This document shows positions 2,999 through 52,319 of a stretch of DNA of 64,000 nucleotides, piece after piece. Under the pieces are notes generated by a model. It ran no database searches and was not told where the DNA came from. It saw nothing but the letters and a program-made list of their open reading frames with translations. The first letter of the stretch is position 1; every line of letters begins with the position of its first letter. Location: the NCBI GenBank assembly GCA_000004985.1, contig GG738848.1; one strand, given 5' to 3'. This DNA comes from Naegleria gruberi (taxonomy: Eukaryota). The position numbers and the translations under genes are program-made.

Positions 2999-4240
2999 AT
3001 GAGCAAACGAAAAAGACAAGATTTTGAAAATCATCATCGCTTAATTAATTCGGAGGAAATATTCACTAACAATTTTAATAATAATATGGAAGAGAAAGCA
3101 AAAAAGAGTGTGAAATTCCAACAAGAAGAAATATTTTCAGATGATGTTTGTTTTGAAATAATCTCCATGATTGATGATTCATGGTTTATTTTAAATAATT
3201 GTTGTTTAATTTCAAAACAATTCTTTAATGTGATCAAGGAACGTTCAAAACTTGTTATTCAATTTAACAAAAAATTTACAGAGAAACGAGTTGAATTATG
3301 CATGAAAAGTCAATTCATGAATAGTATTGTTAATCTTAAAGTTTCTCGTTGGTTGCTTGACTCTGTAGACCAACTCAAATTCATAAGTGAAATGAAACAA
3401 TTAACATCACTCGATATATATAGCAATCGAATTGGTGTAGAAGGAGTTAAATATATAAGTGAAATGAAACAATTAACATCACTTAATATTTCTGAAATTG
3501 AAATTAGTGATGAAGGAGCCAAATATATAAGTGAAATGAAACAATTAACATCACTTTATATACATAATAACGAAATTGGTGATGAAGGATCCAAACACAT
3601 AAGTGAAATGAAACAATTAACATCACTTAATATTGGTTGTAATGAAATTAGTGATGAAGGAGCTAAACATATAAGTGAAATGAACCAATTGATATCGCTT
3701 AGTATTGGTTACAATCGAATTGGTGATGAAGGATTCAAATATATAAGTGAAATGAAACAATTAACATCACTCGATATTACTGACGATGAAATTGGTGATG
3801 AAGGAGCTAAATATATCAGTGAAATGAAACAATTAACATCACTAAATATTGGTTTTAATGAAATTGGTGATGAAGGAGCCAAATACATCAGCGAATTGAA
3901 ACAATTAACATCACTTGATATTTCTGAAACTGAAATTAGTGATGAAGGAGCCAAATATATAAGTGAAATGAAACAATTGATATGGCTTACTATTGGTTAT
4001 AATGAAATTAGTGACAAAGGAGCTAAATACATCAGCGAACTGAAACAATTAACATCACTCGATATTACTGACAATAAAATTGGTAATGAAGGAGCCAAAT
4101 ATATAAGTGAAATGAACCAATTGATATCGCTTAATATTGGTTACAATCGAATTGGTGATGAAGGAGCCAAATATATAAGTGAAATGAAACAATTGACATC
4201 ACTAAGACAAATCAGTTTAGGATTTTACTGTAATAATTGA
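2999..4240 (+). CDS. F-box-like / leucine-rich-repeat protein (RNI-type 24-residue LRRs, ~12 units)
   Basis: 413-aa ORF. The N-terminal segment CFEIISMIDDSWFILNNCCLISKQFF is F-box-like. Tandem 24-aa units follow, with consensus ISEMKQLTSLdIsdNeIGDEGAKY. The paralog at 11446 is about 93% identical over the N-terminal 120 aa. Confidence 0.7.
   Translation: MSKRKRQDFENHHRLINSEEIFTNNFNNNMEEKAKKSVKFQQEEIFSDDVCFEIISMIDDSWFILNNCCLISKQFFNVIKERSKLVIQFNKKFTEKRVELCMKSQFMNSIVNLKVSRWLLDSVDQLKFISEMKQLTSLDIYSNRIGVEGVKYISEMKQLTSLNISEIEISDEGAKYISEMKQLTSLYIHNNEIGDEGSKHISEMKQLTSLNIGCNEISDEGAKHISEMNQLISLSIGYNRIGDEGFKYISEMKQLTSLDITDDEIGDEGAKYISEMKQLTSLNIGFNEIGDEGAKYISELKQLTSLDISETEISDEGAKYISEMKQLIWLTIGYNEISDKGAKYISELKQLTSLDITDNKIGNEGAKYISEMNQLISLNIGYNRIGDEGAKYISEMKQLTSLRQISLGFYCNN
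3376..4210 (+). repeat. In-frame 72-bp tandem repeat array (LRR-coding), about 12 units
   Basis: Direct 72-nt periodicity (ataagtgaaatgaaacaattaacatcact...). The open antisense frames across it are periodicity artefacts. Confidence 0.85.
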
Positions 4241-11445: not shown

Positions 11446-12672
11446 ATGAGCAAACGAAATAGACAAGATTTTGAAAATTATCATCAATTTATTAATTCGG
11501 AGGAAATATTCACTAACAATTTTAATATTATGGAAGAGAAGGCAAAAAAGAGTGTGAAATTCCAACAAGAAATATTTTCAGATGATGTTTGTTTTGAAAT
11601 AATTTCCATGATTGATGATTCATGGTTTATTTTAAATAATTGTTGTTTAATTTCAAAACAATTCTTTAATGTGATCAAGGAACGTTCAAAACTTGTTATT
11701 CAATTTAACAAAAAATTTACAAAGAAACGAGTTCAATTATTCATGAAAAGTCAATTCATGAATAGTATTGTTAATCTTAAAGTTTCTCGCCGGTTACTTG
11801 ACTCTTTAGAACAACCCAAATTCATAAGTGAAATGAAACAATTAACATCACTTAATATTTCTGACAATCAAATTGGCTTAGAAGGAGCCAAATACATCAG
11901 TGAAATGACACAATTAACATCACTTGATATTAGTGTAAATCGAATTGGTGTTGAAGGAGCTAAATTCATAAGTGAAATGAAACAATTAACATCACTTGAT
12001 ATTAGTGTAAATCGAATTGGTGTTGAAGGAGTTAAATTCATAAGCGAAATGAAACAATTAACATCACTTGATATTTCTGACAATCAAATTGGCTTAGAAG
12101 GATCCAAATACATCAGTGAAATGACACAATTAACATCACTTGATATTAGTGTAAATCGAATTGGTGTTGAAGGAGCTAAATTCATAAGTGAAATGAAACA
12201 ATTAACATCACTTAATATTAGTGTAAATCGAATTGGTGTTGAAGGAGTTAAATTCATAAGTGAAATGAAACAATTAACATCACTTGATATTTCTGACAAT
12301 CAAATTGGCTTAGGAGCCAAATACATAAGTGAAATGACACAATTAACATCACTTGATATTTCTGTAAATCGAATTGGTGATGAAGGAGCTAAATTCATAA
12401 GTGAAATGAAACAATTAACATCACTTGATATTTGTGACAATCAAATTGGTGTTGAAGGAGCCAAATTCATAAGCGAAATGACACAATTAACATCACTTGT
12501 TATTACTAGCAATCGAATTGGTGTTGAAGGAGCTAAATTCATAAGTGAAATGAAACAATTAACATCACTTGATATTTCTGGCAATCGAATTGGTGATGAA
12601 GGAGTTAAATTCATAAGTGAAATGAAACAATTAACATCACTTAATATTAGTGTAAATCGAATTGGTGGATGA
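11446..12672 (+). CDS. F-box-like / LRR protein, paralog of 2999..4240
   Basis: 408-aa ORF with the same F-box-like N-terminus and 72-bp LRR units (ISEMKQLTSLDISVNRIGVEGAKF). The stop TGA arises within a repeat unit (attggtgGatgaagg versus the canonical attggtgatgaagg). Confidence 0.65.
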   Translation: MSKRNRQDFENYHQFINSEEIFTNNFNIMEEKAKKSVKFQQEIFSDDVCFEIISMIDDSWFILNNCCLISKQFFNVIKERSKLVIQFNKKFTKKRVQLFMKSQFMNSIVNLKVSRRLLDSLEQPKFISEMKQLTSLNISDNQIGLEGAKYISEMTQLTSLDISVNRIGVEGAKFISEMKQLTSLDISVNRIGVEGVKFISEMKQLTSLDISDNQIGLEGSKYISEMTQLTSLDISVNRIGVEGAKFISEMKQLTSLNISVNRIGVEGVKFISEMKQLTSLDISDNQIGLGAKYISEMTQLTSLDISVNRIGDEGAKFISEMKQLTSLDICDNQIGVEGAKFISEMTQLTSLVITSNRIGVEGAKFISEMKQLTSLDISGNRIGDEGVKFISEMKQLTSLNISVNRIGG

Positions 12673-13137
12673 AGGAGTTAAATTCATAAGTGAAATGAAA
12701 CAATTAACATCACTTAATATTTCTGACAATCAAATTGGCGTAGAAGGAGCCAAATACCTCAGTGAAATGACACAATTAACATCACTTGATATTTCTGACA
12801 ATCAAATTGGCTTAGAAGGAGCCAAATACATAAGTGAAATGAAACAATTAACATCACTTGATATTTCTGCAATCGAATTGGTGATGAAGGAGCTAAATTC
12901 ATAAGCGAAATGAAACAATTAACATCACTTAATATTAGTGTAAATCGAATTGGTGGAGAAGGAGCCAAATACATCAGTGAAATGAAACAATTAACATCAC
13001 TTAATATTATGACAATCGAAATTGGTGACAAGGAGCCAAATACATAAGTGAAATGAAACAATTAACATCACTTCATATTACTAGCAATCAAATTGGCGTA
13101 GAAGGAGCCAAATACATAAGTGAAATGAAACAATTAT
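12673..13137 (+). pseudogene. Out-of-frame degenerate LRR repeat units (~6.5 x 72 bp) trailing the F-box/LRR gene
   Basis: Repeat units remain recognisable but carry several 1-3 nt indels (12662-12672, ~12870, ~13010) that break the frame. Either a decayed part of the array or assembly errors in a repetitive stretch. Confidence 0.5.
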
Positions 13138-25329: not shown

Positions 25330-25402
25330 TGCTGACGGACGGGATCGAACCGGCGACCAATGGCTTATTAGACCAACGCTCTACCGACTGAGCTACGCCA
25401 GC
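25330..25402 (-). tRNA. tRNA-Ile (anticodon AAT)
   Basis: Reverse complement: GCTGGCGTAGCTCAGTCGGTAGAGCGTTGGTCTAATAAGCCATTGGTCGCCGGTTCGATCCCGTCCGTCAGCA. 7-bp acceptor stem, GTAGAGC D-arm, anticodon loop CTAATAA, GGTTCGATCC T-loop, one C-U mismatch in the T-stem. Confidence 0.8.
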
Positions 25403-25567: not shown

Positions 25568-25648
25568 GTTGAGGTGGCCGAGTGGTTAAGGCGCCAGCCT
25601 GCTAAGTTGGTGGAGAAATCCGCGTGGGTTCGAATCCCATCCTCAACG
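25568..25648 (+). tRNA. tRNA-Ser (anticodon GCT), long variable arm
   Basis: GTTGAGGTGGCCGAGTGGTTAAGGCGCCAGCCTGCTAAGTTGGTGGAGAAATCCGCGTGGGTTCGAATCCCATCCTCAACG. Class II tRNA with 3-bp D-stem, anticodon loop CTGCTAA, 13-nt variable arm, GGTTCGAATCC T-loop. Confidence 0.85.
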
Positions 25649-30997: not shown

Positions 30998-33556
30998 ATG
31001 ACATCCGTCAATAAGAACAAGGCTCTGTTTGAAAAGCTGGATGCCAGCGCAGCCAAAGACCAGCACATTTTGAATGGTGGAGCTACAACTACTGTACAAA
31101 AGAAACCATCATCAATTTCAACATCCAATAATTCGTCTAGTTTCGGCAAAGCAAAATCATCAAATAATAATAATACTAAAACAACCAATAATAATAATAC
31201 CAAAACGACAAATTCATCATCCACTTCATCATCATCCTTTCTAAACAAGACTAATAGTTCACCATCATTGAAATCGAATAATAATTCGAATAGTGCTTCA
31301 GCAACCAAGACCACACCAACTCCACCTCCTTTCAAACAAACCACCACAACTCCCACTGCGCCACCAAAAACCAGCACAGTTTCCACCACTTCTGTCAATT
31401 CACTCAACAAACTATCAACCAACAGTCAATCAAGTCCAACCTTGAAAAGTACTTCAACCACCAGCAGCAGTATTAACAGTCCTAGTGGTAGCACACGTAA
31501 AGCACCTCCTCCACCATCATCCTCTTCATCATCAGCATCATCAACTTCTCCTAAACTGCCATCAACACCAAGTACGTCAGCCATCAAAAAAACATCAAAC
31601 ACTCCAAGTACTCCAAGCACACCAATTTCTGCACTTGTGGACAATGATTACTTTAGTTCAATTACTAAAGATGTTCCAAAGAGTGAAATTAAAATATCTG
31701 GTCCTAAAGGATTGACACACGTTGGTCATGCCTCAACTAATGATCCAACTGCATTGTTTAAGAAAAATGCTCGATCTCAAACGATTACTGGTGGAGAACT
31801 TTCGAATAGTTCAACAAAGAAGAGGGATGGAGTGAGTTTTGATGTTCCTGTAAGTGAAAAGAGTGAAAAGAAGGATGGAGAAGCATCTGGTTCGAGTGCT
31901 AAACAAGTTTTGAATCAGGCAACTGATAAATTGAAAAGTGGAATGTCCAAGATGACCAATTTGGTCAAGACTACTTGGGCTGCTGTTGGAAATGATAGTC
32001 CATCTACTCCAACCAGTAGCTCCAGCTCTAGTGGTAGTAGCTTAACAAGTTCTAAGAAATCAAAGCCAAAGAAATTGCCACCAGTTCCAAAACCTGCAAA
32101 TTCAGTTCGTGTTGCAAATACCAAAGTTGTGAGTATTTACATTCCAGAGAATGATGCTTCCGAACATGATCGTGAATTGGAAAAGACCAGAACTGAATTG
32201 GAAAAGAGAAAGACCATGATGAACGAGAAAATTAAGGAAGAGGAAAAGAAGAAATTAGCAGAAATGAAACAAAATATTCTCCAAGAGGAGCAAGCCAAGA
32301 AGAAACAATTGGAAGAAACATTACAAAAGGAAGAACGTGCCAAATTGGAAAAACTTGAAAAGGAACTAGCCAGTTTATCAGACCAAAAGAGAGAAGAACA
32401 ACTTAAACAATTGAGAAATGAAGAAGCCAGAAGAAAGGAGAAAATGCTCTCTGATTTGGACAGAGATGCCAAGACTAAGATTAAGGAAATCGATAGTCAA
32501 GTTCGTGCTGAAAAAGAAGATCGTTTGAGACAACTCGAAGAGGAAATGAGAAAAGAAGAAGCTCTTGCCAGAAAGGACATTGAAAAGAAATTCAAGGAAG
32601 AGGAATTGAAAAAGAAACAAGAACTTCAAGCCAAGATTGAAAAGGAAGAAAAGGAAATGTTGCAACGTATTCAAAAGAAACTCCAGGAAGAGGAAGAAAG
32701 AAAACTCAAAGAGCTCGCTCGTAAAATGGAAGAAGAAGAACAGCAACGATTGGAAAAGATTAAAGCCAACTTGAAAGAGATTGAAAATGCTAAAAAGCAA
32801 ACACCTCAACATCAAGAAGTTTCACAATTGAGAAGAAAGTCAGTCACTGCTCGTCTCATGCAGGAAGAAGAAGAAAAGATCAAACAATTAAGTCAACAAA
32901 TTAAACAAGAAGAAATGAAACGAATTGAAGAATTGGAAAAGAAGATGAAACAAGAAGAACAAGAAAGAAAGCAAAGAATGAAACAAGAACTCGAACGTCT
33001 CGAAGACGAACAACGTCAACTCTTAATGCAACAATTGGAAGAAGAGAAACGAAAGCTCCAAGAAAAATTCCAAAAGGAAGCCGAAAAGGAAGCTGAGGAA
33101 CACCGAAAGAAACTCCTAGCTCAAAATTCTGCAATCATTTCGAATAATGTTTCAGTTCCACCACCTCCTCCATCTTCTTCATCATCAGGTTCTATTCCTC
33201 CACCTCCAGGTGGTAGCTCTCTTCCACCTCCACCTCCAACTGCCATTCTTCCTGTCTCTACTCCAAAAATTGAAATTCACATTGATTTACCAGAACTCTC
33301 TGGAAGAGGTGACTTGTTAGAAAGTATCAGAAAGGGAGCTAGTTTAAAGAAAGTCACTACAGAACAAATCAGCAAACCTCAATCCTCAGGAAATGCCATC
33401 ACTAACATGCTCAAAAAAGCCCTCGACCAAAAACGAATTCACATGGCAGACGAAAGTGATGAAGAAGAAAGTGAAGACGAAGATGATGAATGGGATTCAG
33501 AAGCTCACAATTTAATTGAATCTAAAAAGAAATCATTAGTCAACTCTGATGAATAA
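30998..33556 (+). CDS. Arp2/3 nucleation-promoting-factor-like protein: S/T/N-rich N-terminus, long E/K coiled coil, poly-proline (FH1/profilin-binding-like) region, WH2-Central-Acidic tail
   Basis: 852-aa ORF. PPPPPSSSSSGSIPPPPGGSSLPPPPP, then WH2 GRGDLLESIRKGASLKKV, an amphipathic C-region NMLKKALDQKRIHMA and acidic DESDEEESEDEDDEWD with a conserved Trp. This is the classic VCA arrangement. The antisense ORFs here are low-complexity artefacts. Confidence 0.65.
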   Translation: MTSVNKNKALFEKLDASAAKDQHILNGGATTTVQKKPSSISTSNNSSSFGKAKSSNNNNTKTTNNNNTKTTNSSSTSSSSFLNKTNSSPSLKSNNNSNSASATKTTPTPPPFKQTTTTPTAPPKTSTVSTTSVNSLNKLSTNSQSSPTLKSTSTTSSSINSPSGSTRKAPPPPSSSSSSASSTSPKLPSTPSTSAIKKTSNTPSTPSTPISALVDNDYFSSITKDVPKSEIKISGPKGLTHVGHASTNDPTALFKKNARSQTITGGELSNSSTKKRDGVSFDVPVSEKSEKKDGEASGSSAKQVLNQATDKLKSGMSKMTNLVKTTWAAVGNDSPSTPTSSSSSSGSSLTSSKKSKPKKLPPVPKPANSVRVANTKVVSIYIPENDASEHDRELEKTRTELEKRKTMMNEKIKEEEKKKLAEMKQNILQEEQAKKKQLEETLQKEERAKLEKLEKELASLSDQKREEQLKQLRNEEARRKEKMLSDLDRDAKTKIKEIDSQVRAEKEDRLRQLEEEMRKEEALARKDIEKKFKEEELKKKQELQAKIEKEEKEMLQRIQKKLQEEEERKLKELARKMEEEEQQRLEKIKANLKEIENAKKQTPQHQEVSQLRRKSVTARLMQEEEEKIKQLSQQIKQEEMKRIEELEKKMKQEEQERKQRMKQELERLEDEQRQLLMQQLEEEKRKLQEKFQKEAEKEAEEHRKKLLAQNSAIISNNVSVPPPPPSSSSSGSIPPPPGGSSLPPPPPTAILPVSTPKIEIHIDLPELSGRGDLLESIRKGASLKKVTTEQISKPQSSGNAITNMLKKALDQKRIHMADESDEEESEDEDDEWDSEAHNLIESKKKSLVNSDE

Positions 33557-46669: not shown

Positions 46670-48793
46670 TTATGTCACATTAAAGATATGAACTTTTTTC
46701 TTGGAATAATCAGCAACGTAAAGCTCATTATTCACTTCATTCATACACATTCCATAAGGTCCTTGTAAATGTTCACTTTTGAAACTATGTAAATATCCGC
46801 CACTTTCGTCAAATAATTCGATTCTCTTATTGGACGAATCACAAATCAATAATTGTCTAGAAACCTTATCATACAACAGTCCTCTCACAAAATTGAATTC
46901 CCCAATTGAGCTACCACTCTTTCCAAATGAATATTTCAACTCGGCTTGATAATTATTCTTGAAATTGACTCCAGTTGCAAGTGGAGATTCTGGTGTGATG
47001 GAAAGTTTAAAGATTTGAATCTTATTCGAACCTGTTTCACTCACTATTAAATCACCATTCAGTGTCATGTCTATTCCCCATGGAGAGCTAAAGTTTATAC
47101 CACAAGTTGATTGATCGAGTCTGTGAATTGGTTGACCAGTTTGTGAATTCAACAAGTGAATGCAATTATTATTGTAATCACATACAAATAGCAGTTTGGA
47201 ATTTTTACAAAATGTCATTCCACTTGGATAGGAAATTATTCCACTTGATTGTTTCCATTCGTAAAATTGAGATTGTTTGTCAATGATTGAAATTTTCAAT
47301 AATTGTTCCAAATTGAACTTGTAAACTGAACGATCGTTGGATCCAATGAAGATGCTCGTTCTAGATGATGCAGAGGAAGGACTCTTTGGAGAGGAAACTG
47401 CATCACCTCTTATATCTTCCTCAATAATATACAAACAATGAGGTCTGAAGAAGGTCTTGATGGATCCTTTAAATTTCTTTGTTTTCAAATCGTAAACCAT
47501 TATTCTACTATTGAAATAGTCGCTCACTAAGAGAACATTTAAGAGGTGAGAGATTTTGACATCGTATGGATTGGAGAGATTGTTCTTTTCATTTTCTTGT
47601 TGTTCCAGAGAGTGAGAATAAGCGATTGTTCGAGGAATGACTCTTCTCTTCATGATATTCGAAACAGAAGAGAAATGCTCCAACTCTGTTCGAATTTCCT
47701 CGACAATTTCACTCAAATCCATGAGTTGATTCTCATATAAATCTGAAATGTCAGTAAACTGAAACAACAACTTGATTTTCTCAAATTCTTGAAGCGTTTT
47801 GTAATATTTTCGGTGTTTCCTTTCCAATAATTCATATCCTGACATGTCTGATAAACTAGCAAACTCCAAATACAACAATTTCACATCCTTCTTCAATGTT
47901 GCAATTTCTCTGACTATCATTTCGTATTCCAAACATTTCTTCTCAATGCTTTCGTTCAATTTCTCTTGTTTCTCCCTCACTACTCTTTGTACATTCTCAT
48001 AAAATTCATTCGATTGCTGTTTCATCCTCAATTTCATTTTAGAAATCTTGTTTAAATAGAATTGACATTGATCATTCGTCTTGTTTGGTTCCAAACCATG
48101 CATACTCTCCCATTCATTCACACTATTTTCCAATTCACTCAATTCTTGTGTCATTTTCAATTTTTCTTCAGCTTCTATATTCTCAATTAGGAAAATATCA
48201 TGTCCCTTATGCGAATCAACAGAACAAGCAGCACAAATTAATGATTGGCAAGTTTTGCAGACAGTATTGATAGCTACTGAGTGGAGAATACATTTGGGAG
48301 GTTTCTTTCGGGCAGAAAGTGGTGAGGGTTGATGCTGAGAGGGCGAAATTGTATTTAAACTCAAGGGAGAAACTAAACTATTCTGAACCGAATCATGAGG
48401 AAAGATGTGATGATGTGAGCACTTCTTTAAATGTGTTTTTGTATGGAATTTACATAGATACAAATCACATTCCTTGCAAAAACAAGTTGATTCTTGATAT
48501 TCTTCTGCTTTCTTCCAACATTTCGAACAAGGTTGAATTTTATAATAAACTCCATTCGAAACTAAAGATGACGGTGATGATTTAGGAGTTTTAGGTGAGG
48601 ATTCGGTACTGCCAACAAGAGAAGATGAGGTCGTGTTGCTACTAGCACCACTTGAGGAACGAGAATGAATCATGAACTTTTTTTTTATGAAGTTTTTATT
48701 AGAGTTGATTGTTGACATGTGTGTTGCATTTGGAAACAAGAAGAGAATGAGGAAACTTTCTTTCTTGAAACCATGTATGATTCGATTTTTCAA
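46670..48793 (-). CDS. B-box / coiled-coil / NHL-repeat protein (TRIM-NHL-like without an identifiable RING)
   Basis: 707-aa ORF. Two B-box-like Zn modules (CSKCWKK...CFCKECDLYLCKFH and CILHSVAINTVCKTCQSLICAACSVDSHKGHD), about 200 aa of coiled coil, and NHL-type repeats at the C-terminus (e.g. SNKRIELFDESGGYLHSF, GPYGMCMNEVNNELYVADYSKKKVHIFN). Confidence 0.7.
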   Translation of the reverse strand: MKNRIIHGFKKESFLILFLFPNATHMSTINSNKNFIKKKFMIHSRSSSGASSNTTSSSLVGSTESSPKTPKSSPSSLVSNGVYYKIQPCSKCWKKAEEYQESTCFCKECDLYLCKFHTKTHLKKCSHHHIFPHDSVQNSLVSPLSLNTISPSQHQPSPLSARKKPPKCILHSVAINTVCKTCQSLICAACSVDSHKGHDIFLIENIEAEEKLKMTQELSELENSVNEWESMHGLEPNKTNDQCQFYLNKISKMKLRMKQQSNEFYENVQRVVREKQEKLNESIEKKCLEYEMIVREIATLKKDVKLLYLEFASLSDMSGYELLERKHRKYYKTLQEFEKIKLLFQFTDISDLYENQLMDLSEIVEEIRTELEHFSSVSNIMKRRVIPRTIAYSHSLEQQENEKNNLSNPYDVKISHLLNVLLVSDYFNSRIMVYDLKTKKFKGSIKTFFRPHCLYIIEEDIRGDAVSSPKSPSSASSRTSIFIGSNDRSVYKFNLEQLLKISIIDKQSQFYEWKQSSGIISYPSGMTFCKNSKLLFVCDYNNNCIHLLNSQTGQPIHRLDQSTCGINFSSPWGIDMTLNGDLIVSETGSNKIQIFKLSITPESPLATGVNFKNNYQAELKYSFGKSGSSIGEFNFVRGLLYDKVSRQLLICDSSNKRIELFDESGGYLHSFKSEHLQGPYGMCMNEVNNELYVADYSKKKVHIFNVT

Positions 48794-48961: not shown

Positions 48962-50468
48962 TTAATATTTTTCATGTAATTCTTGGAAGTGTGTTTCGGT
49001 TTTCTTCCTATTCAAGAAAACTAGTAAAATACACACCACAATACACAATGCAATCAAAGATAGAATAAATAATACACCAACAGCAATAATTGGCTTCAAT
49101 GTAAATAAATAATCAACTGGAGCAGTACTGAATTGAAAGTTTCCACCTTTTGAGAATACTACATAGTATTGAGTTGCTTCTCCTGAAAAGAGATAGAGAT
49201 TAGTTGAATTTACATGATAGTCATAATTGAAAAATTGATTTCTTTCAATATTCCAAGTGATTGGTTTCTTTCCAATATAAACATCTTGAATTGTTGCTGT
49301 ATTTTCAATTCTGATTTCAAAATATGTTTGAGGTTGAGTGGTGAAAGTTGCTGTGAATGGTGCGGAATTATCACTTTGAATTGAGTATGTTTGTCCAATT
49401 TCAAGTTTAGTATAATTAAAACTAATCTTTTTAGCATAAAACAAATTATATACAGCACTGGGTGGAGAAATTGTGAATGAATAATCTGGATTTCTATTGG
49501 AGATGACTTGTTGTGTAAGATTTGATTGAACAATGGCTACCATTTCTTGATTTGAATTTGAGAATTGCCACACTGATTGAACTGGATCATTAGATTTCAA
49601 CTCTTGAGCTATCAATGAAATGCAACCATAATTTTGATAGAAATGATCTTCTTTCACACTTTCAATTGAATTCCATTCATTTACCAAACAATTCCCAATA
49701 TAAAATAAAACATTTCGTTGCTGAATAGGATTCAGTTTCAACACCAAATTAGGTTGTCCATAAACGNNNNNNNNNNNNNNNNNNNNNNNNNNNNNNNNNN
49801 NNNNNNNNNNNNNNNNCTGATTTCATTCTGGGAATGTTAAATTTGCAAAATCCACATTAATTTCCATAACTTTTCCCCATTCAACTGGTTTTGTTTCTCC
49901 ATATGGACAAGCAAGTTTAGATTTTCCAGAAAATCCATAATTGATAACACCACCTTCTTTTGATTCACCAGTGAATGTGAGAGTTGGTCTTTCAGCAGCA
50001 GTGAAATCACATGTTAAAGAAATAGACAATGCTCTTGTAACTCCATCAGTAGCAGGAATACCAGCATGGAAGACCTTTACACCAGCACTTTCATCTGCAG
50101 GATTGAGCAATGAAAGTTTAGGAGTACCTTTCTTACCGATAGGATAGCAGAGATTGTATTGTTTAGCATATAGATATCCTTGAGCGTCAACAGTACAAAC
50201 AGCATTGCTTGGATTGGTAACTCCTCCACAAATATTGCTAAAATTCCAACTAATTAGTTTCCGATAATAATAAACAAAATACATACAAATAAAAGTTGAA
50301 ATTAGCATCGGTTGCTGCAACTTTATATCCTGAACCAGGAATATCAATATTAGAAAGGTCGATAATTCCTCTATAAGCAATTGGTAATGAACAAGTCGGT
50401 GCGGAGAATACAACATGCACACAACAAGCAAGCAGCAATGTGAGCAACACAAAGGTCAATCGTAACAT
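48962..50468 (-). CDS. MRH-like type I membrane glycoprotein, paralog A (exon 1 50287..50468; exon 2 50237 down to 48962, interrupted by the N-run 49757..49816 and a 1-nt indel next to it)
   Basis: Signal peptide MLRLTFVLLTLLLACCVHVVFSA and GTATGT/TTTTAG intron as in paralog B. Cys-rich N-terminal domain ending ...GKSKLACPY (MRH-like). C-terminal TM plus cytoplasmic tail. The stretches 49210-49533 and 51077-51400 are near-identical. Confidence 0.5.
49757..49816. other. Scaffold gap (60 N)
   Basis: Run of n. Homology with paralog B shows the flanks are essentially contiguous (B has ...gaaatcag|tttatgg...). Confidence 0.95.
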
Positions 50469-50897
50469 TTTTTTTAGTCACTTCCAAAACCAATCAATCA
50501 TCATGGGTATTAATTTTACCAAAAATTCCGATTATACAAATTAATATTATATATTACAACACAAGAGATTAAATCATTTTGACTATTTTATCTAAAACCA
50601 TTAATTTGTGTATTCATCATCATCATGCTGTTGTGATATTTTTTTTTCAACTTTTTTTGAAGTTGGACCATAGAGTTTACAACAACTGATAAAGAATCAA
50701 TTTGTTTGTAAAATAATAATGGGAACATTTTGATAGGATTCACTGAATCAACCTTAATGGATTATTCCTTGGGGATTAGTTGAGCGTATATTGATCATCA
50801 ATACTTTAGATTGTCAGTAATATGAATGAGAAACACTCATGAGGTGTGAAATCATTCTGGCAACAATTTTTATTTTCCAATATTTCCTCTTTTCCTT

Positions 50898-52319
50898 TTA
50901 AACAAAATATAACAATGAAAAAATCAATGCAATGATCAACAATGAGCCACCAACACAACGATTAGAATCATTTCTAAATGCATGTTCAGTTATAGTGACT
51001 TTGAATCCACCTTTTGAAGATACCAAATAGTATTGAGTTGCTTCACCAGAGTAGATTGTTTCTTTTTGTGTTAAATTCAAATGATAATCATAATTGAAAA
51101 ATTGATTTCTTTCAATATTCCAAGTGATTGGTTTCTTTCCAATATAAACATCTTGAATTGTTGCTGTATTTTCAATTCTGATTTCAAAATATGTTTGAGG
51201 TTGAGTGGTGAAAGTTGCTGTGAATGGTGCAGAATTATCACTTTGAATTGAGTATGTTTGTCCAATTTCAAATTTAGTATAATTAAAACTAATCTTTTTA
51301 GCATAAAACAAATTATATACAGCACTGGGTGGAGAAATAGTGAATGAATAATCTGGATTTCTATTGGAGATGACTTGTTGTGTAAGATTTGATTGAACAA
51401 TGGCTACCATTTCTTGATTCGAATTTGAAAATTGCCACACTGATTGAACTGCCTCATTAGAGTTCAATTCTTGAGCTATCAAAGAAATGCAACCATAATT
51501 TTGATAGAAATGATCTTCTTTCACACTTTCAATTGAATTCCATTCATTTACCAAACAATTCCCAATATAGAATAAAACATTTCTTTGCTGAATAGGATTC
51601 AGTTTCAATACCAAATTTGGTTGTCCATAAACTGATTTCAATTCTGGAAATGTCAAATTTGCAAAATCCACATTAATTTCCATAACTCTTCCCCATTCAA
51701 CTGTTTTTTTTGCATATGGGCAGGCAAGTTTAGATTTTCCAGAAAAACCATAATTGATAACACCACCTTCTCTTGATTCACCACTGAATGTGAGAGTTGG
51801 TCTTTCAGGAGCAGTTAAATCACATGTTAATGAAATAGACAATGCTCTTGAAACTCCATCAGTGGCAGGAATACCAGCATGGACGACCTTTACAACTAAT
51901 CCATCACTAGTCGAATTCAAACTAATTTGGGGAACCCCTTTAACACCTATTGGAAAGCAGAGATTGTATTGTTTGGAATATTGATATCCTTGAGCGTCAA
52001 CAGTACAAACAGCAGTGCTTGGATTGGTGATACTTCCACAAATATTGCTAAATTAGTTTACATTAGTTTTCGAATAATCCACAAATATATGATTATTATA
52101 AAATGGGTTAAAAAATTAATATACATACAAATAAAAGTTCCAATTAGCATCGGTTCCTGCAACCGTATATCCTGAGCCAGGAATATCAATATTCGAAAGC
52201 TCTATAATTCCAACATCACCAATTTTTAATGAACAAGATGATGCAGAGAACACAACATTCACACAACAAGTCAACAGCAGTAGCAGGAGTGTGAGAAACC
52301 GAAAGGTCAATCGAAACAT
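50898..52319 (-). CDS. MRH-like membrane/GPI-type glycoprotein, paralog B (exons 52129..52319 and 50898..52047, 81-nt intron)
   Basis: Exon 1 MFRLTFRFLTLLLLLLTCCVNVVFSA...ANWNFY, then a TT|GTATGT donor and AATTTAG| acceptor give ...F-NICGSITNPSTAVCTVDAQGY.... Six or more conserved Cys, ...SGKSKLACPY motif, many N-glycosylation sites, and a short hydrophobic C-terminus (GGSLLIIALIFSLLYFV). Confidence 0.6.

What the first reader, a model, noticed from the sequence alone, without database searches (positions are those of the whole stretch)
48962..52319. Tandem MRH-like glycoprotein paralogs with a conversion tract, different membrane anchors, and a scaffold gap that appears to be artefactual
Genes A and B share a signal peptide, an intron at the identical position (TT|GTATGT ... 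TTTAG|C), a Cys-rich MRH-like domain and a large N-glycosylated stalk. Their N-termini are ~75% identical, but a central block (49210-49533 versus 51077-51400) is almost base-identical, which suggests recent gene conversion. The C-termini differ: A has a TM plus a basic cytoplasmic tail, while B ends in a short hydrophobic GPI-signal-like tail. The 60-N run lies inside A's CDS. Alignment with B shows A's flanks are contiguous (...gaaatcag|[N60]cg|tttatgg...), so the true gap is ~0-2 nt. There is also a 1-nt deletion (gaatgaaat versus gaattgaaat in B) next to the gap that creates a TGA. This points to low-quality sequence at a collapsed tandem-repeat join, and additional unassembled copies may exist.
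Basis: seen in the sequence. Interest (0 to 1): 0.55.

Follow-up and report, generated by a model that had tools for sequence, protein, structure and literature searches.

The report
Tandem Naegleria MRH-lectin gene pair
Two neighbouring copies of a Naegleria gruberi membrane lectin-like gene have had their middle 0.87 kb homogenised by gene conversion, and one copy is broken only by a placeholder assembly gap and a probable one-base sequencing error; this is ordinary genome biology plus a small annotation fix.

Summary
The window is Naegleria gruberi. Gene B (50898-52319, minus strand) is 100% identical to the annotated protein NAEGRDRAFT_78226. Gene A (48962-50468, minus strand) is a tandem paralog that is missing from the protein databases.

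Both genes encode a signal peptide, one phase-2 intron at the same codon, an MRH (P-type lectin) domain, an all-beta region of about 220 aa, and a C-terminal hydrophobic anchor. The all-beta region has no relatives outside N. gruberi.

An interior tract (A 49214-50080, B 51081-51893) differs at 3.9% of sites, against 27.8% outside it. The contrast holds at third codon positions (p=1.5e-11), so this is gene conversion and not protein constraint.

The N run is 50 N, not 60. A's flanks abut or overlap by 0-2 nt relative to B, so no homologous codons are missing. A one-base deletion 8 nt from the contig end creates a TGA. The few A/B differences in the beta region are mostly synonymous (4 N : 11 S), so A has not been a pseudogene for long. 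This favours an artefact, but reads are needed to prove it. The idea of a collapsed array with hidden copies is not supported.

New details: A carries Leu in place of the lectin's essential Gln. B is the faster-evolving copy and has no cytosolic tail. Interest is low.

The parts
48962..50468 (-). Gene A. It is absent from the protein databases. The repaired model is 468 aa: exon 1 50287-50468, intron 50238-50286 (49 nt, GTATGT...TAG, phase 2), exon 2 48962-50237, stop TAA 48962-48964.
   Evidence: No protein corresponding to A was returned from the 5.8 bn or 1.84 bn protein collections.
50898..52319 (-). Gene B, which is NAEGRDRAFT_78226 (446 aa): exon 1 52129-52319, intron 52048-52128 (81 nt), exon 2 50898-52047, stop TAA 50898-50900.
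   Evidence: The spliced translation is 100% identical over its full length to P0001, Naegleria gruberi 'MRH domain-containing protein'.
49767..49816 (.). Scaffold gap of 50 N inside gene A's exon 2. It is the only N run in the window.
   Evidence: The flanks are collinear with B...CCATAAACG [N50] CTGATTTC... in A versus CCATAAACTGATTTC in B.
49765..49766 (.). 'CG' at the end of the left contig. It is either 2 extra nt, or a 2-nt overlap with the 'CT' that starts the right contig, with one miscalled base.
   Evidence: Read directly from the alignment.
49823..49825 (-). In-frame TGA in gene A. It is created by loss of one T from a TT doublet (GAATGAAAT versus GAATTGAAAT in B), 8 nt from the contig end.
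49214..50080 (-). Homogenised (gene-conversion) tract, gene A side. It covers the C-terminal half of the MRH domain and most of the beta region. The sub-block 49214-49552 is the most identical (4 differences in 339 nt).
   Evidence: 32/813 differences inside versus 142/510 outside. Third codon positions are 20/271 versus 56/170 (p=1.5e-11). The inner split has p about 0.03.
51081..51893 (-). Homogenised tract, gene B side. The most identical sub-block is 51081-51419.
51720..52235 (-). MRH domain of B (Cys29 to Cys173, six Cys). All four sugar-binding positions are present: Q86, R131, E154, Y163.
49907..50393 (-). MRH domain of A (Cys26 to Cys171). R129, E152 and Y161 are present, but the Gln position is Leu83.
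50171..50173 (-). Codon CTA (Leu83) in A, where B, the P0002 MRH domains and P0003 have Gln (CAA in B). All other aligned homologues have Gln except P0016 and P0022, which have Glu. This position aligns with the essential Gln of the CI-MPR binding sites.
50979..51641 (-). Orphan all-beta region of B (about aa 200-420, two conserved Cys). The equivalent region in A is about 49115-49825 and spans the gap.
48965..49096 (-). A's transmembrane segment (about 49016-49096) and basic cytosolic tail LNRKKTETHFQELHEKY (48965-49015).
   Evidence: Hydropathy analysis and translation.
50901..50957 (-). B's C-terminal hydrophobic end CVGGSLLIIALIFSLLYFV, with no cytosolic residues. It is preceded by the small polar residues NDSN.

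Best explanation
This is a tandem, head-to-tail pair of Naegleria gruberi genes. Each encodes a type I membrane, lectin-like protein with four parts: a signal peptide, one MRH (mannose-6-phosphate-receptor-homology, P-type lectin) domain, an all-beta ectodomain of about 220 aa found only in N. gruberi, and a C-terminal membrane anchor.

The duplication is old. Synonymous divergence (dS) is 0.3-0.8 at both ends of the genes, the introns differ in length, and the intergenic DNA cannot be aligned. An interior patch of 0.87 kb has since been homogenised by one or two non-reciprocal recombination (gene conversion) events. The most recent event covers the last 339 nt of the patch.

Gene A is probably an intact, selected gene. 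In the public assembly it is interrupted by a 50-N placeholder between two contigs that actually abut or overlap, and by a single-base miscall in a TT doublet at the low-quality contig end. That is probably why no protein for A appears in the databases.

The inferred function (not shown here) is glycan-binding cargo or surface receptors. The MRH module appears to derive from the conserved ATG27/CD-MPR-like receptor gene of the same genome. The two copies are diverging in the sugar-binding half (Gln to Leu in A, faster change in B) and in the anchor (B has lost its cytosolic tail).
For: - Organism and gene B: 100% identity to NAEGRDRAFT_78226.
- Gene structures and the shared intron position.
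- MRH domain: a 17-sequence profile matches solved CI-MPR structures at E=9e-30, best to domains 5 and 3, with the Q/R/E/Y positions aligned. Paralog P0002 reaches Pfam CIMR (E=1.4e-9) and P0003 reaches ATG27 and Man-6-P_recep.
- Conversion: 3.9% versus 27.8% differences. The chi-square is 136 on the fine grid. On the coarse grid the observed value is 133 against a permutation maximum of 20. Third positions are 20/271 versus 56/170, p=1.5e-11. dS is 0.11 inside the tract versus 0.34-0.81 outside.
- The patch is flanked on both sides by diverged sequence, so it needs conversion (a double exchange), not unequal crossing-over.
- Gap: the flanks are collinear with B within 0-2 nt.
- A under constraint: in the beta region there are 4 nonsynonymous versus 11 synonymous differences (omega about 0.09). 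About 22 nonsynonymous changes would be expected on a neutral A lineage (P about 7e-8). Polarised with P0002, A has about 1 derived change and B about 2 (alignment).
- In the MRH domain, A has 6 derived residues and B has 15, using P0003 as outgroup.
- Origin of the MRH module: A's exon 2 is 83% identical to N. gruberi NAEGRDRAFT_79079. That gene's own MRH is only 51% identical to its N. lovaniensis/N. fowleri counterpart.
Against: - No reads, transcripts or second assembly could be reached. The TGA, the Leu83 codon and the true gap content are therefore unverified (searches found nothing).
- Why two contigs should end exactly at abutting positions is unexplained. The gap is not at an A/B identity boundary.
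- A and B themselves do not reach any Pfam MRH-type model.
- AF2 gave no usable model of the MRH part (pLDDT 20-35).
- Repeated conversion from a functional B could keep a dead A looking constrained.
- Some of the near-identity could come from B reads entering A's consensus in a draft Sanger assembly.
- The function is entirely inferred.
Confidence: 0.7

Rival explanations
1. Gene A is a real pseudogene or null allele. The one-base deletion and TGA are genuine. The gap may mark an insertion, for example a high-copy element that the assembler could not extend into, placed exactly at that point.
For: - The TGA lies upstream of the gap, so no gap content can rescue the frame.
- A also has Leu at the essential Gln position of the lectin site.
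- No protein for A exists in the databases.
- Exactly abutting flanks are what an insertion relative to B would give.
Against: - The A/B differences in the post-gap region are 4 nonsynonymous versus 11 synonymous. A long-neutral A lineage should have added about 22 nonsynonymous changes.
- A is the slower-evolving copy in the MRH domain (6 versus 15 derived residues).
- Apart from this one site, the 468-codon frame is open.
- The deletion is in a TT doublet 8 nt from a contig end, where base calls are poorest.
- Contigs normally extend some way into a unique insertion. Here they stop within 2 nt.
Confidence: 0.18
2. The locus is a collapsed array. One or more further near-identical copies lie between the two contigs, and the gap is where they were lost.
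For: - The locus is a tandem repeat with a block that is 99% identical.
- A gap of whole-unit multiples would also leave collinear flanks.
Against: - The gap is in the interior of the unit, in a zone that is only about 94% identical to B (6.4% and 5.2% differences on its two sides). It is not at a unit boundary or in the most repetitive part.
- No third copy or partial copy is present in the 64-kb window.
- The 50-N length is a round placeholder, not a size estimate of about 1.9 kb.
Confidence: 0.07
3. The near-identity of the central block is not biological. It is an assembly consensus artefact, in which reads of B were recruited into A's contigs or the reverse.
For: - A contig break lies inside the tract.
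- This is a draft Sanger assembly, and low-quality contig ends are visible.
Against: - 32 differences, including a 3-nt indel, are retained across the tract, so the assembler did separate the copies.
- The tract has sharp boundaries on both sides, each inside a single contig. The 3' boundary at 49214 is about 550 nt from the gap.
- The graded pattern (1.2% then 5.9%) fits nested conversion events.
Confidence: 0.08
4. The central identity reflects strong purifying selection on the protein and not conversion.
For: The tract encodes the conserved half of the MRH domain and the beta region. Amino-acid identity there is 257/271.
Against: - Synonymous and third-position sites show the same contrast: dS is 0.11 versus 0.34-0.81, and third positions give p=1.5e-11.
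- The tract boundaries cut through the MRH domain and do not follow domain borders.
Confidence: 0.02

Closest known systems
P-type lectin / MRH domains of the cation-independent and cation-dependent mannose-6-phosphate receptors (Pfam CIMR PF00878, Man-6-P_recep PF02157)
   Same: - The domain is the same size, with a six-Cys pattern as in CI-MPR domain 5.
- The profile matches solved CI-MPR structures at E=9e-30.
- The Gln/Arg/Glu/Tyr binding positions are conserved in B.
- The proteins have type I membrane topology.
   Different: - There is a single MRH domain, followed by an unrelated orphan beta region.
- The tails carry no recognisable acidic-dileucine or YXXphi sorting motif.
- A has Leu at the Gln position.
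- A and B do not reach the Pfam thresholds on their own.
- Binding of any glycan is untested.
ATG27 / CD-MPR-like receptor of Naegleria (N. gruberi NAEGRDRAFT_79079 = P0003; N. lovaniensis and N. fowleri 'Autophagy-related protein 27' = P0006/P0037)
   Same: - The MRH exon of A is 83% identical to P0003, and that of B is 72%.
- The P0003 gene model begins exactly where exon 2 of A and B begins (NICG...).
   Different: - P0003 goes straight from the MRH domain to a conserved transmembrane segment and tail (FWKDLPFL...DLIKG...YQEMA).
- A and B lack that tail and carry about 220 aa of beta region in its place.
N. gruberi paralog P0002 (565 aa 'predicted protein')
   Same: It is the only other protein found with the same beta region (30-35% identity). 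It also has a transmembrane segment and a short basic tail, as A does.
   Different: It has two MRH domains and lies on another scaffold. It is far more diverged and shows no sign of homogenisation at the protein level.
Interlocus gene conversion between tandem paralogs (textbook example from my own knowledge: the human gamma-globin genes HBG1/HBG2)
   Same: There is an interior patch of near-identity with sharp borders inside older, diverged duplicates. The patch length, in the hundreds of bp to about 1 kb, is typical.
   Different: Nothing unusual. The direction and timing of the events cannot be resolved from two sequences.

Membership tests
MRH / P-type lectin domain | Significant sequence match to curated family models (Pfam CIMR, Man-6-P_recep, ATG27, PRKCSH) | tested here: inconclusive
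   A and B alone give no Pfam hit even at E<=1. Their close relatives do: P0002 hits CIMR at E=1.4e-9, and P0003 hits ATG27 at 2.8e-12 and Man-6-P_recep at 1.8e-8. UniProt's label for B is 'MRH domain-containing protein'.
MRH / P-type lectin domain | Homology to solved MRH structures | tested here: met
   The profile of A, B, P0002 and 13 further homologues hits CI-MPR chains at E=9e-30. The best domain alignments are to repeats 5 and 3 (i-E 2.8e-12).
MRH / P-type lectin domain | Conserved Cys framework (3-4 disulfides) | tested here: met
   B has six Cys (29, 67, 78, 94, 139, 173) and A has six (26, 64, 75, 91, 137, 171). Four of the Cys columns are invariant or nearly invariant across the 17 sequences; the rest were not listed as conserved, partly because several sequences are truncated there.
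MRH / P-type lectin domain | Four sugar-contacting residues Gln, Arg, Glu, Tyr | tested here: met
   B meets this with Q86, R131, E154 and Y163. A does not fully meet it: it has L83, R129, E152 and Y161.
MRH / P-type lectin domain | Flattened beta-barrel fold | tested here: inconclusive
   The AF2 model of full-length B has pLDDT 20-35 over the MRH part, from a 5-row alignment.
MRH / P-type lectin domain | Binding of mannose-6-phosphate or high-mannose glycans | not testable with these tools
   This needs a glycan array or pull-down experiment.
GPI-anchored protein (gene B) | C-terminal signal: small omega-site residues, a short polar spacer, then a terminal hydrophobic stretch of 12-20 aa with no cytosolic residues | tested here: inconclusive
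   ...FRNDSNRCVGG-SLLIIALIFSLLYFV* fits the pattern by eye, for example omega = N423 with omega+2 = S425. No GPI predictor was available, and a tail-less transmembrane anchor fits equally well. A literature search for GPI transamidase in Naegleria found nothing.
Interlocus gene conversion tract | Interior segment with significantly lower divergence than both flanks, including at silent sites | tested here: met
Processed or decayed pseudogene (gene A) | Neutral substitution pattern (dN/dS about 1), multiple disabling lesions | tested here: not met
   There is one lesion only, next to a contig end. Omega is about 0.09 in the beta region, and A evolves more slowly than B in the MRH domain.

The most novel reading that the evidence does not exclude
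A, B and P0002 may define a family of lectin receptors found so far only in N. gruberi. On this reading the family arose when the MRH exon of the conserved ATG27/CD-MPR-like sorting receptor was copied onto an orphan double beta-sandwich ectodomain. In the tandem pair, gene conversion keeps the ectodomain uniform. Meanwhile the sugar-binding half (Gln to Leu in A, 15 derived residues in B, omega 0.6-0.7) and the membrane anchor (tail loss or a GPI switch in B) diverge. That would be subfunctionalisation of a glycan receptor, for example surface prey or glycan recognition versus intracellular sorting.
Probability: 0.2. Interest if true: 0.4.

Novelty: new member of a known kind. Interest (0 to 1): 0.2.

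Why it matters
The practical value is modest. It adds one missing gene model (A, 468 aa) to the N. gruberi catalogue. It also flags a scaffold gap that probably needs only a 0-2 nt closure and a one-base correction.

Biologically, it is a clean small example of interlocus gene conversion in a heterolobosean. It also documents an MRH-domain architecture (MRH plus an orphan beta region) that was found only in N. gruberi. This could interest people who study lysosomal sorting or glycan recognition in Naegleria. Nothing here challenges current understanding.

Tried and rejected
- Pfam scan of A and B: no MRH hit.
- phmmer of B against PDB sequences: nothing. Only a family profile worked.
- The look-up of encoding contigs for B: not on record, so no independent contig or gene-model context.
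- Metagenome scan for a gap-spanning pattern (CCAGAAT[N0-1]GAAATCAG[N0-30]TTTATGGACAACC): 0 hits. In the window it matches only B.
- Metagenome scan for relatives of the beta region: 600 pattern matches, none confirmed.
- Exhaustive HMMER search of 1.84 bn representatives: all hits cover the MRH part only. The single 'beta region' hit (P0014) is a cystatin-repeat protein and was judged spurious.
- Literature searches for Naegleria MPR, the locus tag, assembly gap conventions and GPI transamidase: nothing usable.
- Idea that the gap sits at an A/B identity boundary (repeat-boundary contig break): rejected, because divergence is similar on both sides.
- Idea that the in-frame KEKRKYWK... after B's stop is a relic cytosolic tail: 27 open codons have P about 0.12 by chance in this AT-rich DNA, so this is only a hint.
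- Similarity of B's hydrophobic end to the P0003 transmembrane segment (7/17, E=0.044): too weak to use.
Full report
**What the sequence is**

The window has 30-38% G+C. The spliced translation of the upstream gene of the pair is 100% identical over 446 aa to Naegleria gruberi NAEGRDRAFT_78226. UniProt labels that protein 'MRH domain-containing protein'. Both genes lie on the minus strand.

- Gene B: ATG at 52319, exon 1 52129-52319, an 81-nt intron 52048-52128, exon 2 down to TAA 50898-50900.
- Gene A: ATG at 50468, exon 1 50287-50468, a 49-nt intron 50238-50286, exon 2 down to TAA 48962-48964.

The introns interrupt the same codon in phase 2 (...TTTTATTT|GTATGT...TTTAG|CAATATTTGTGG). tblastn and blastn against the whole window find only these two copies.

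Gene A has no counterpart among 5.8 bn clustered proteins or 1.84 bn representatives, so it appears to be missing from the public annotation.

**Check of the observation**

- The N run is 50 N (49767-49816), not 60.
- The homogenised region is much larger than the quoted block.
- The 'stalk' is not heavily glycosylated. The beta region of A carries 3 sequons; that of B carries 4, with a fifth just before its hydrophobic end.
- The 'extra CG' has an alternative reading, described under the gap below.

Repaired A (468 aa) and B (446 aa) are 82% identical overall. By segment the identities are 80/112 in the N-terminal part, 257/271 in the middle, and 26/58 at the C-terminus.

**Gene conversion**

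A two-breakpoint maximum chi-square scan places the low-divergence tract at A-CDS 340-1155. That corresponds to window 49214-50080 in A and 51081-51893 in B.

| Measure | Inside tract | Outside tract |
|---|---|---|
| Differences | 32/813 (3.9%) | 142/510 (27.8%) |
| Third codon positions | 20/271 | 56/170 |
| dS | about 0.11 | 0.34-0.81 |

- The chi-square is 136 on the fine grid. On the coarser grid used for the 300 permutations, the observed value is 133 against a maximum of 20.
- The third-position contrast has Fisher p=1.5e-11.
- Protein-level constraint therefore cannot explain the pattern.
- The patch is flanked on both sides by old divergence, the introns differ in size, and the intergenic DNA is unalignable. 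This needs non-reciprocal exchange, not unequal crossing-over.
- Within the tract, the 3'-most 339 nt (A 49214-49552) have 4 differences against 28 in the other 474 nt (p about 0.03). This fits nested events of different age.
- The tract starts in the middle of the MRH domain, so it does not follow domain borders.

**The gap and the stop codon**

On the plus strand A reads ...GGTTGTCCATAAACG[N50]CTGATTTC-ATTCTGG. B reads GGTTGTCCATAAACTGATTTCAATTCTGG.

- Either two bases (CG) are extra, or the left contig's terminal CG is the right contig's initial CT with one miscall. The second reading is a 2-nt overlap.
- Either way, no homologous sequence of the gene is missing.
- Eight bases into the right contig, a TT doublet is read as T. 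This gives CCA GAA TGA (49823-49825). Because the TGA lies 5' of the gap in the gene, no gap content can rescue the frame. Only correcting that base restores it.

I could not reach reads, transcripts or another assembly. Indirect evidence favours an error over a dead gene.

- In the post-gap beta region the A/B differences are 4 nonsynonymous to 11 synonymous (omega about 0.09).
- If A's lineage had been neutral since homogenisation, about 22 nonsynonymous changes would be expected on it (P about 7e-8).
- Polarising with P0002 gives about 1 derived change in A and about 2 in B.
- In the MRH domain A has 6 derived residues against 15 in B, with P0003 as outgroup.

The gap is not at an identity boundary, since divergence is 6.4% before it and 5.2% after it. 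It also lies in the interior of the repeat unit. The 'collapsed array join' idea therefore has no positive support. An insertion of a masked high-copy element exactly there remains possible.

**What the proteins are**

A and B do not reach any Pfam model on their own, and phmmer against PDB sequences finds nothing. The exhaustive profile search returned 35 proteins, and all real matches fall in the N-terminal domain. Several of these hit Pfam ATG27, Man-6-P_recep or CIMR.

A 17-sequence profile of the domain hits solved CI-MPR chains at E=9e-30, best to repeats 5 and 3. The four carbohydrate-contacting residues align.

- B has Q86, R131, E154 and Y163.
- A has L83 (CTA versus CAA, 50171-50173), R129, E152 and Y161.
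- Every other aligned homologue keeps Gln at that position, except two that have Glu.

The closest relative of the MRH exon is another N. gruberi gene, NAEGRDRAFT_79079 (P0003). It is an ATG27/CD-MPR-like receptor on a different scaffold. It is 83% identical to A and 72% to B. Its own MRH is only 51% identical to the N. lovaniensis/N. fowleri 'ATG27' protein. This suggests the MRH module of the A/B family was copied from that receptor within the N. gruberi lineage. This is an inference.

**Anchors**

A ends with a hydrophobic segment of about 26 aa and LNRKKTETHFQELHEKY, which is a type I transmembrane anchor like that of P0002. B ends ...FRNDSNRCVGGSLLIIALIFSLLYFV with no cytosolic residue. 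This fits a GPI signal by eye, and it fits a tail-less transmembrane anchor equally well. B is the derived copy here too, because A and P0002 share ..VD(Y/F)..(F/Y)T.. just before the membrane and B does not.

**Verdict**

This is a real but ordinary feature. It is an old tandem duplicate of a lineage-specific MRH-lectin-like gene with a well-supported interior conversion tract. A draft-assembly gap hides no gene sequence, and a probable one-base error has kept gene A out of the annotation. The function as a glycan receptor is inferred from the domain only.

Noticed in passing
window 50171-50173 (-): Gene A has Leu (CTA) at the position of the essential sugar-binding Gln of MRH domains. All 16 other aligned homologues have Gln there, except two that have Glu. 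It could be a real change of specificity, a loss of binding, or another base-call problem.
   Followed up: partly
window 50817-50900 (-): In frame after B's TAA the sequence stays open for 27 codons and begins KEKRKYWK. This is a basic cluster of the kind that follows a transmembrane segment, so B's tail-less end may stem from a nonsense mutation. By chance alone P is about 0.12.
   Followed up: partly
P0003 (N. gruberi NAEGRDRAFT_79079, another scaffold): The MRH domain of the conserved ATG27/CD-MPR-like receptor is 83% identical to gene A, but only 51% identical to its N. lovaniensis/N. fowleri counterpart. Its gene model starts exactly at the exon-2 boundary of A and B, so that model is probably truncated at the N-terminus.
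   Followed up: partly
window 3376-4203 and 11816-13136: Two long arrays with a 72-nt period (24-aa units such as ...ISEMKQLTSL(D/N)I..N.IG.EGAK...; 11.5 and 18.4 copies, 80-86% matches). They look like leucine-rich-repeat coding genes that are related to each other.
   Followed up: no
window 25330-25402 (-) and 25568-25648 (+): A divergently oriented pair of tRNA genes, tRNA-Ile(AAT) and tRNA-Ser(GCT), lies 165 nt apart.
   Followed up: no
window 30998-33556 (+): The strong AT skew (0.345 at 32-34 kb) comes from an 852-aa ORF. The ORF has a Ser/Thr/Asn-rich N-terminal part, a long Glu/Lys-rich coiled-coil-like middle, proline runs, and a WH2-like motif (LLESIRKGASLKKV) near the C-terminus.
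   Followed up: no
window 46670-48793 (-): The gene immediately downstream of gene A is a 707-aa ORF. It has Cys/His-rich B-box-like motifs and a C-terminal repeat region that looks NHL/beta-propeller-like. It is unrelated to the pair.
   Followed up: no
They are not the limits of the identity tract.
   Followed up: yes
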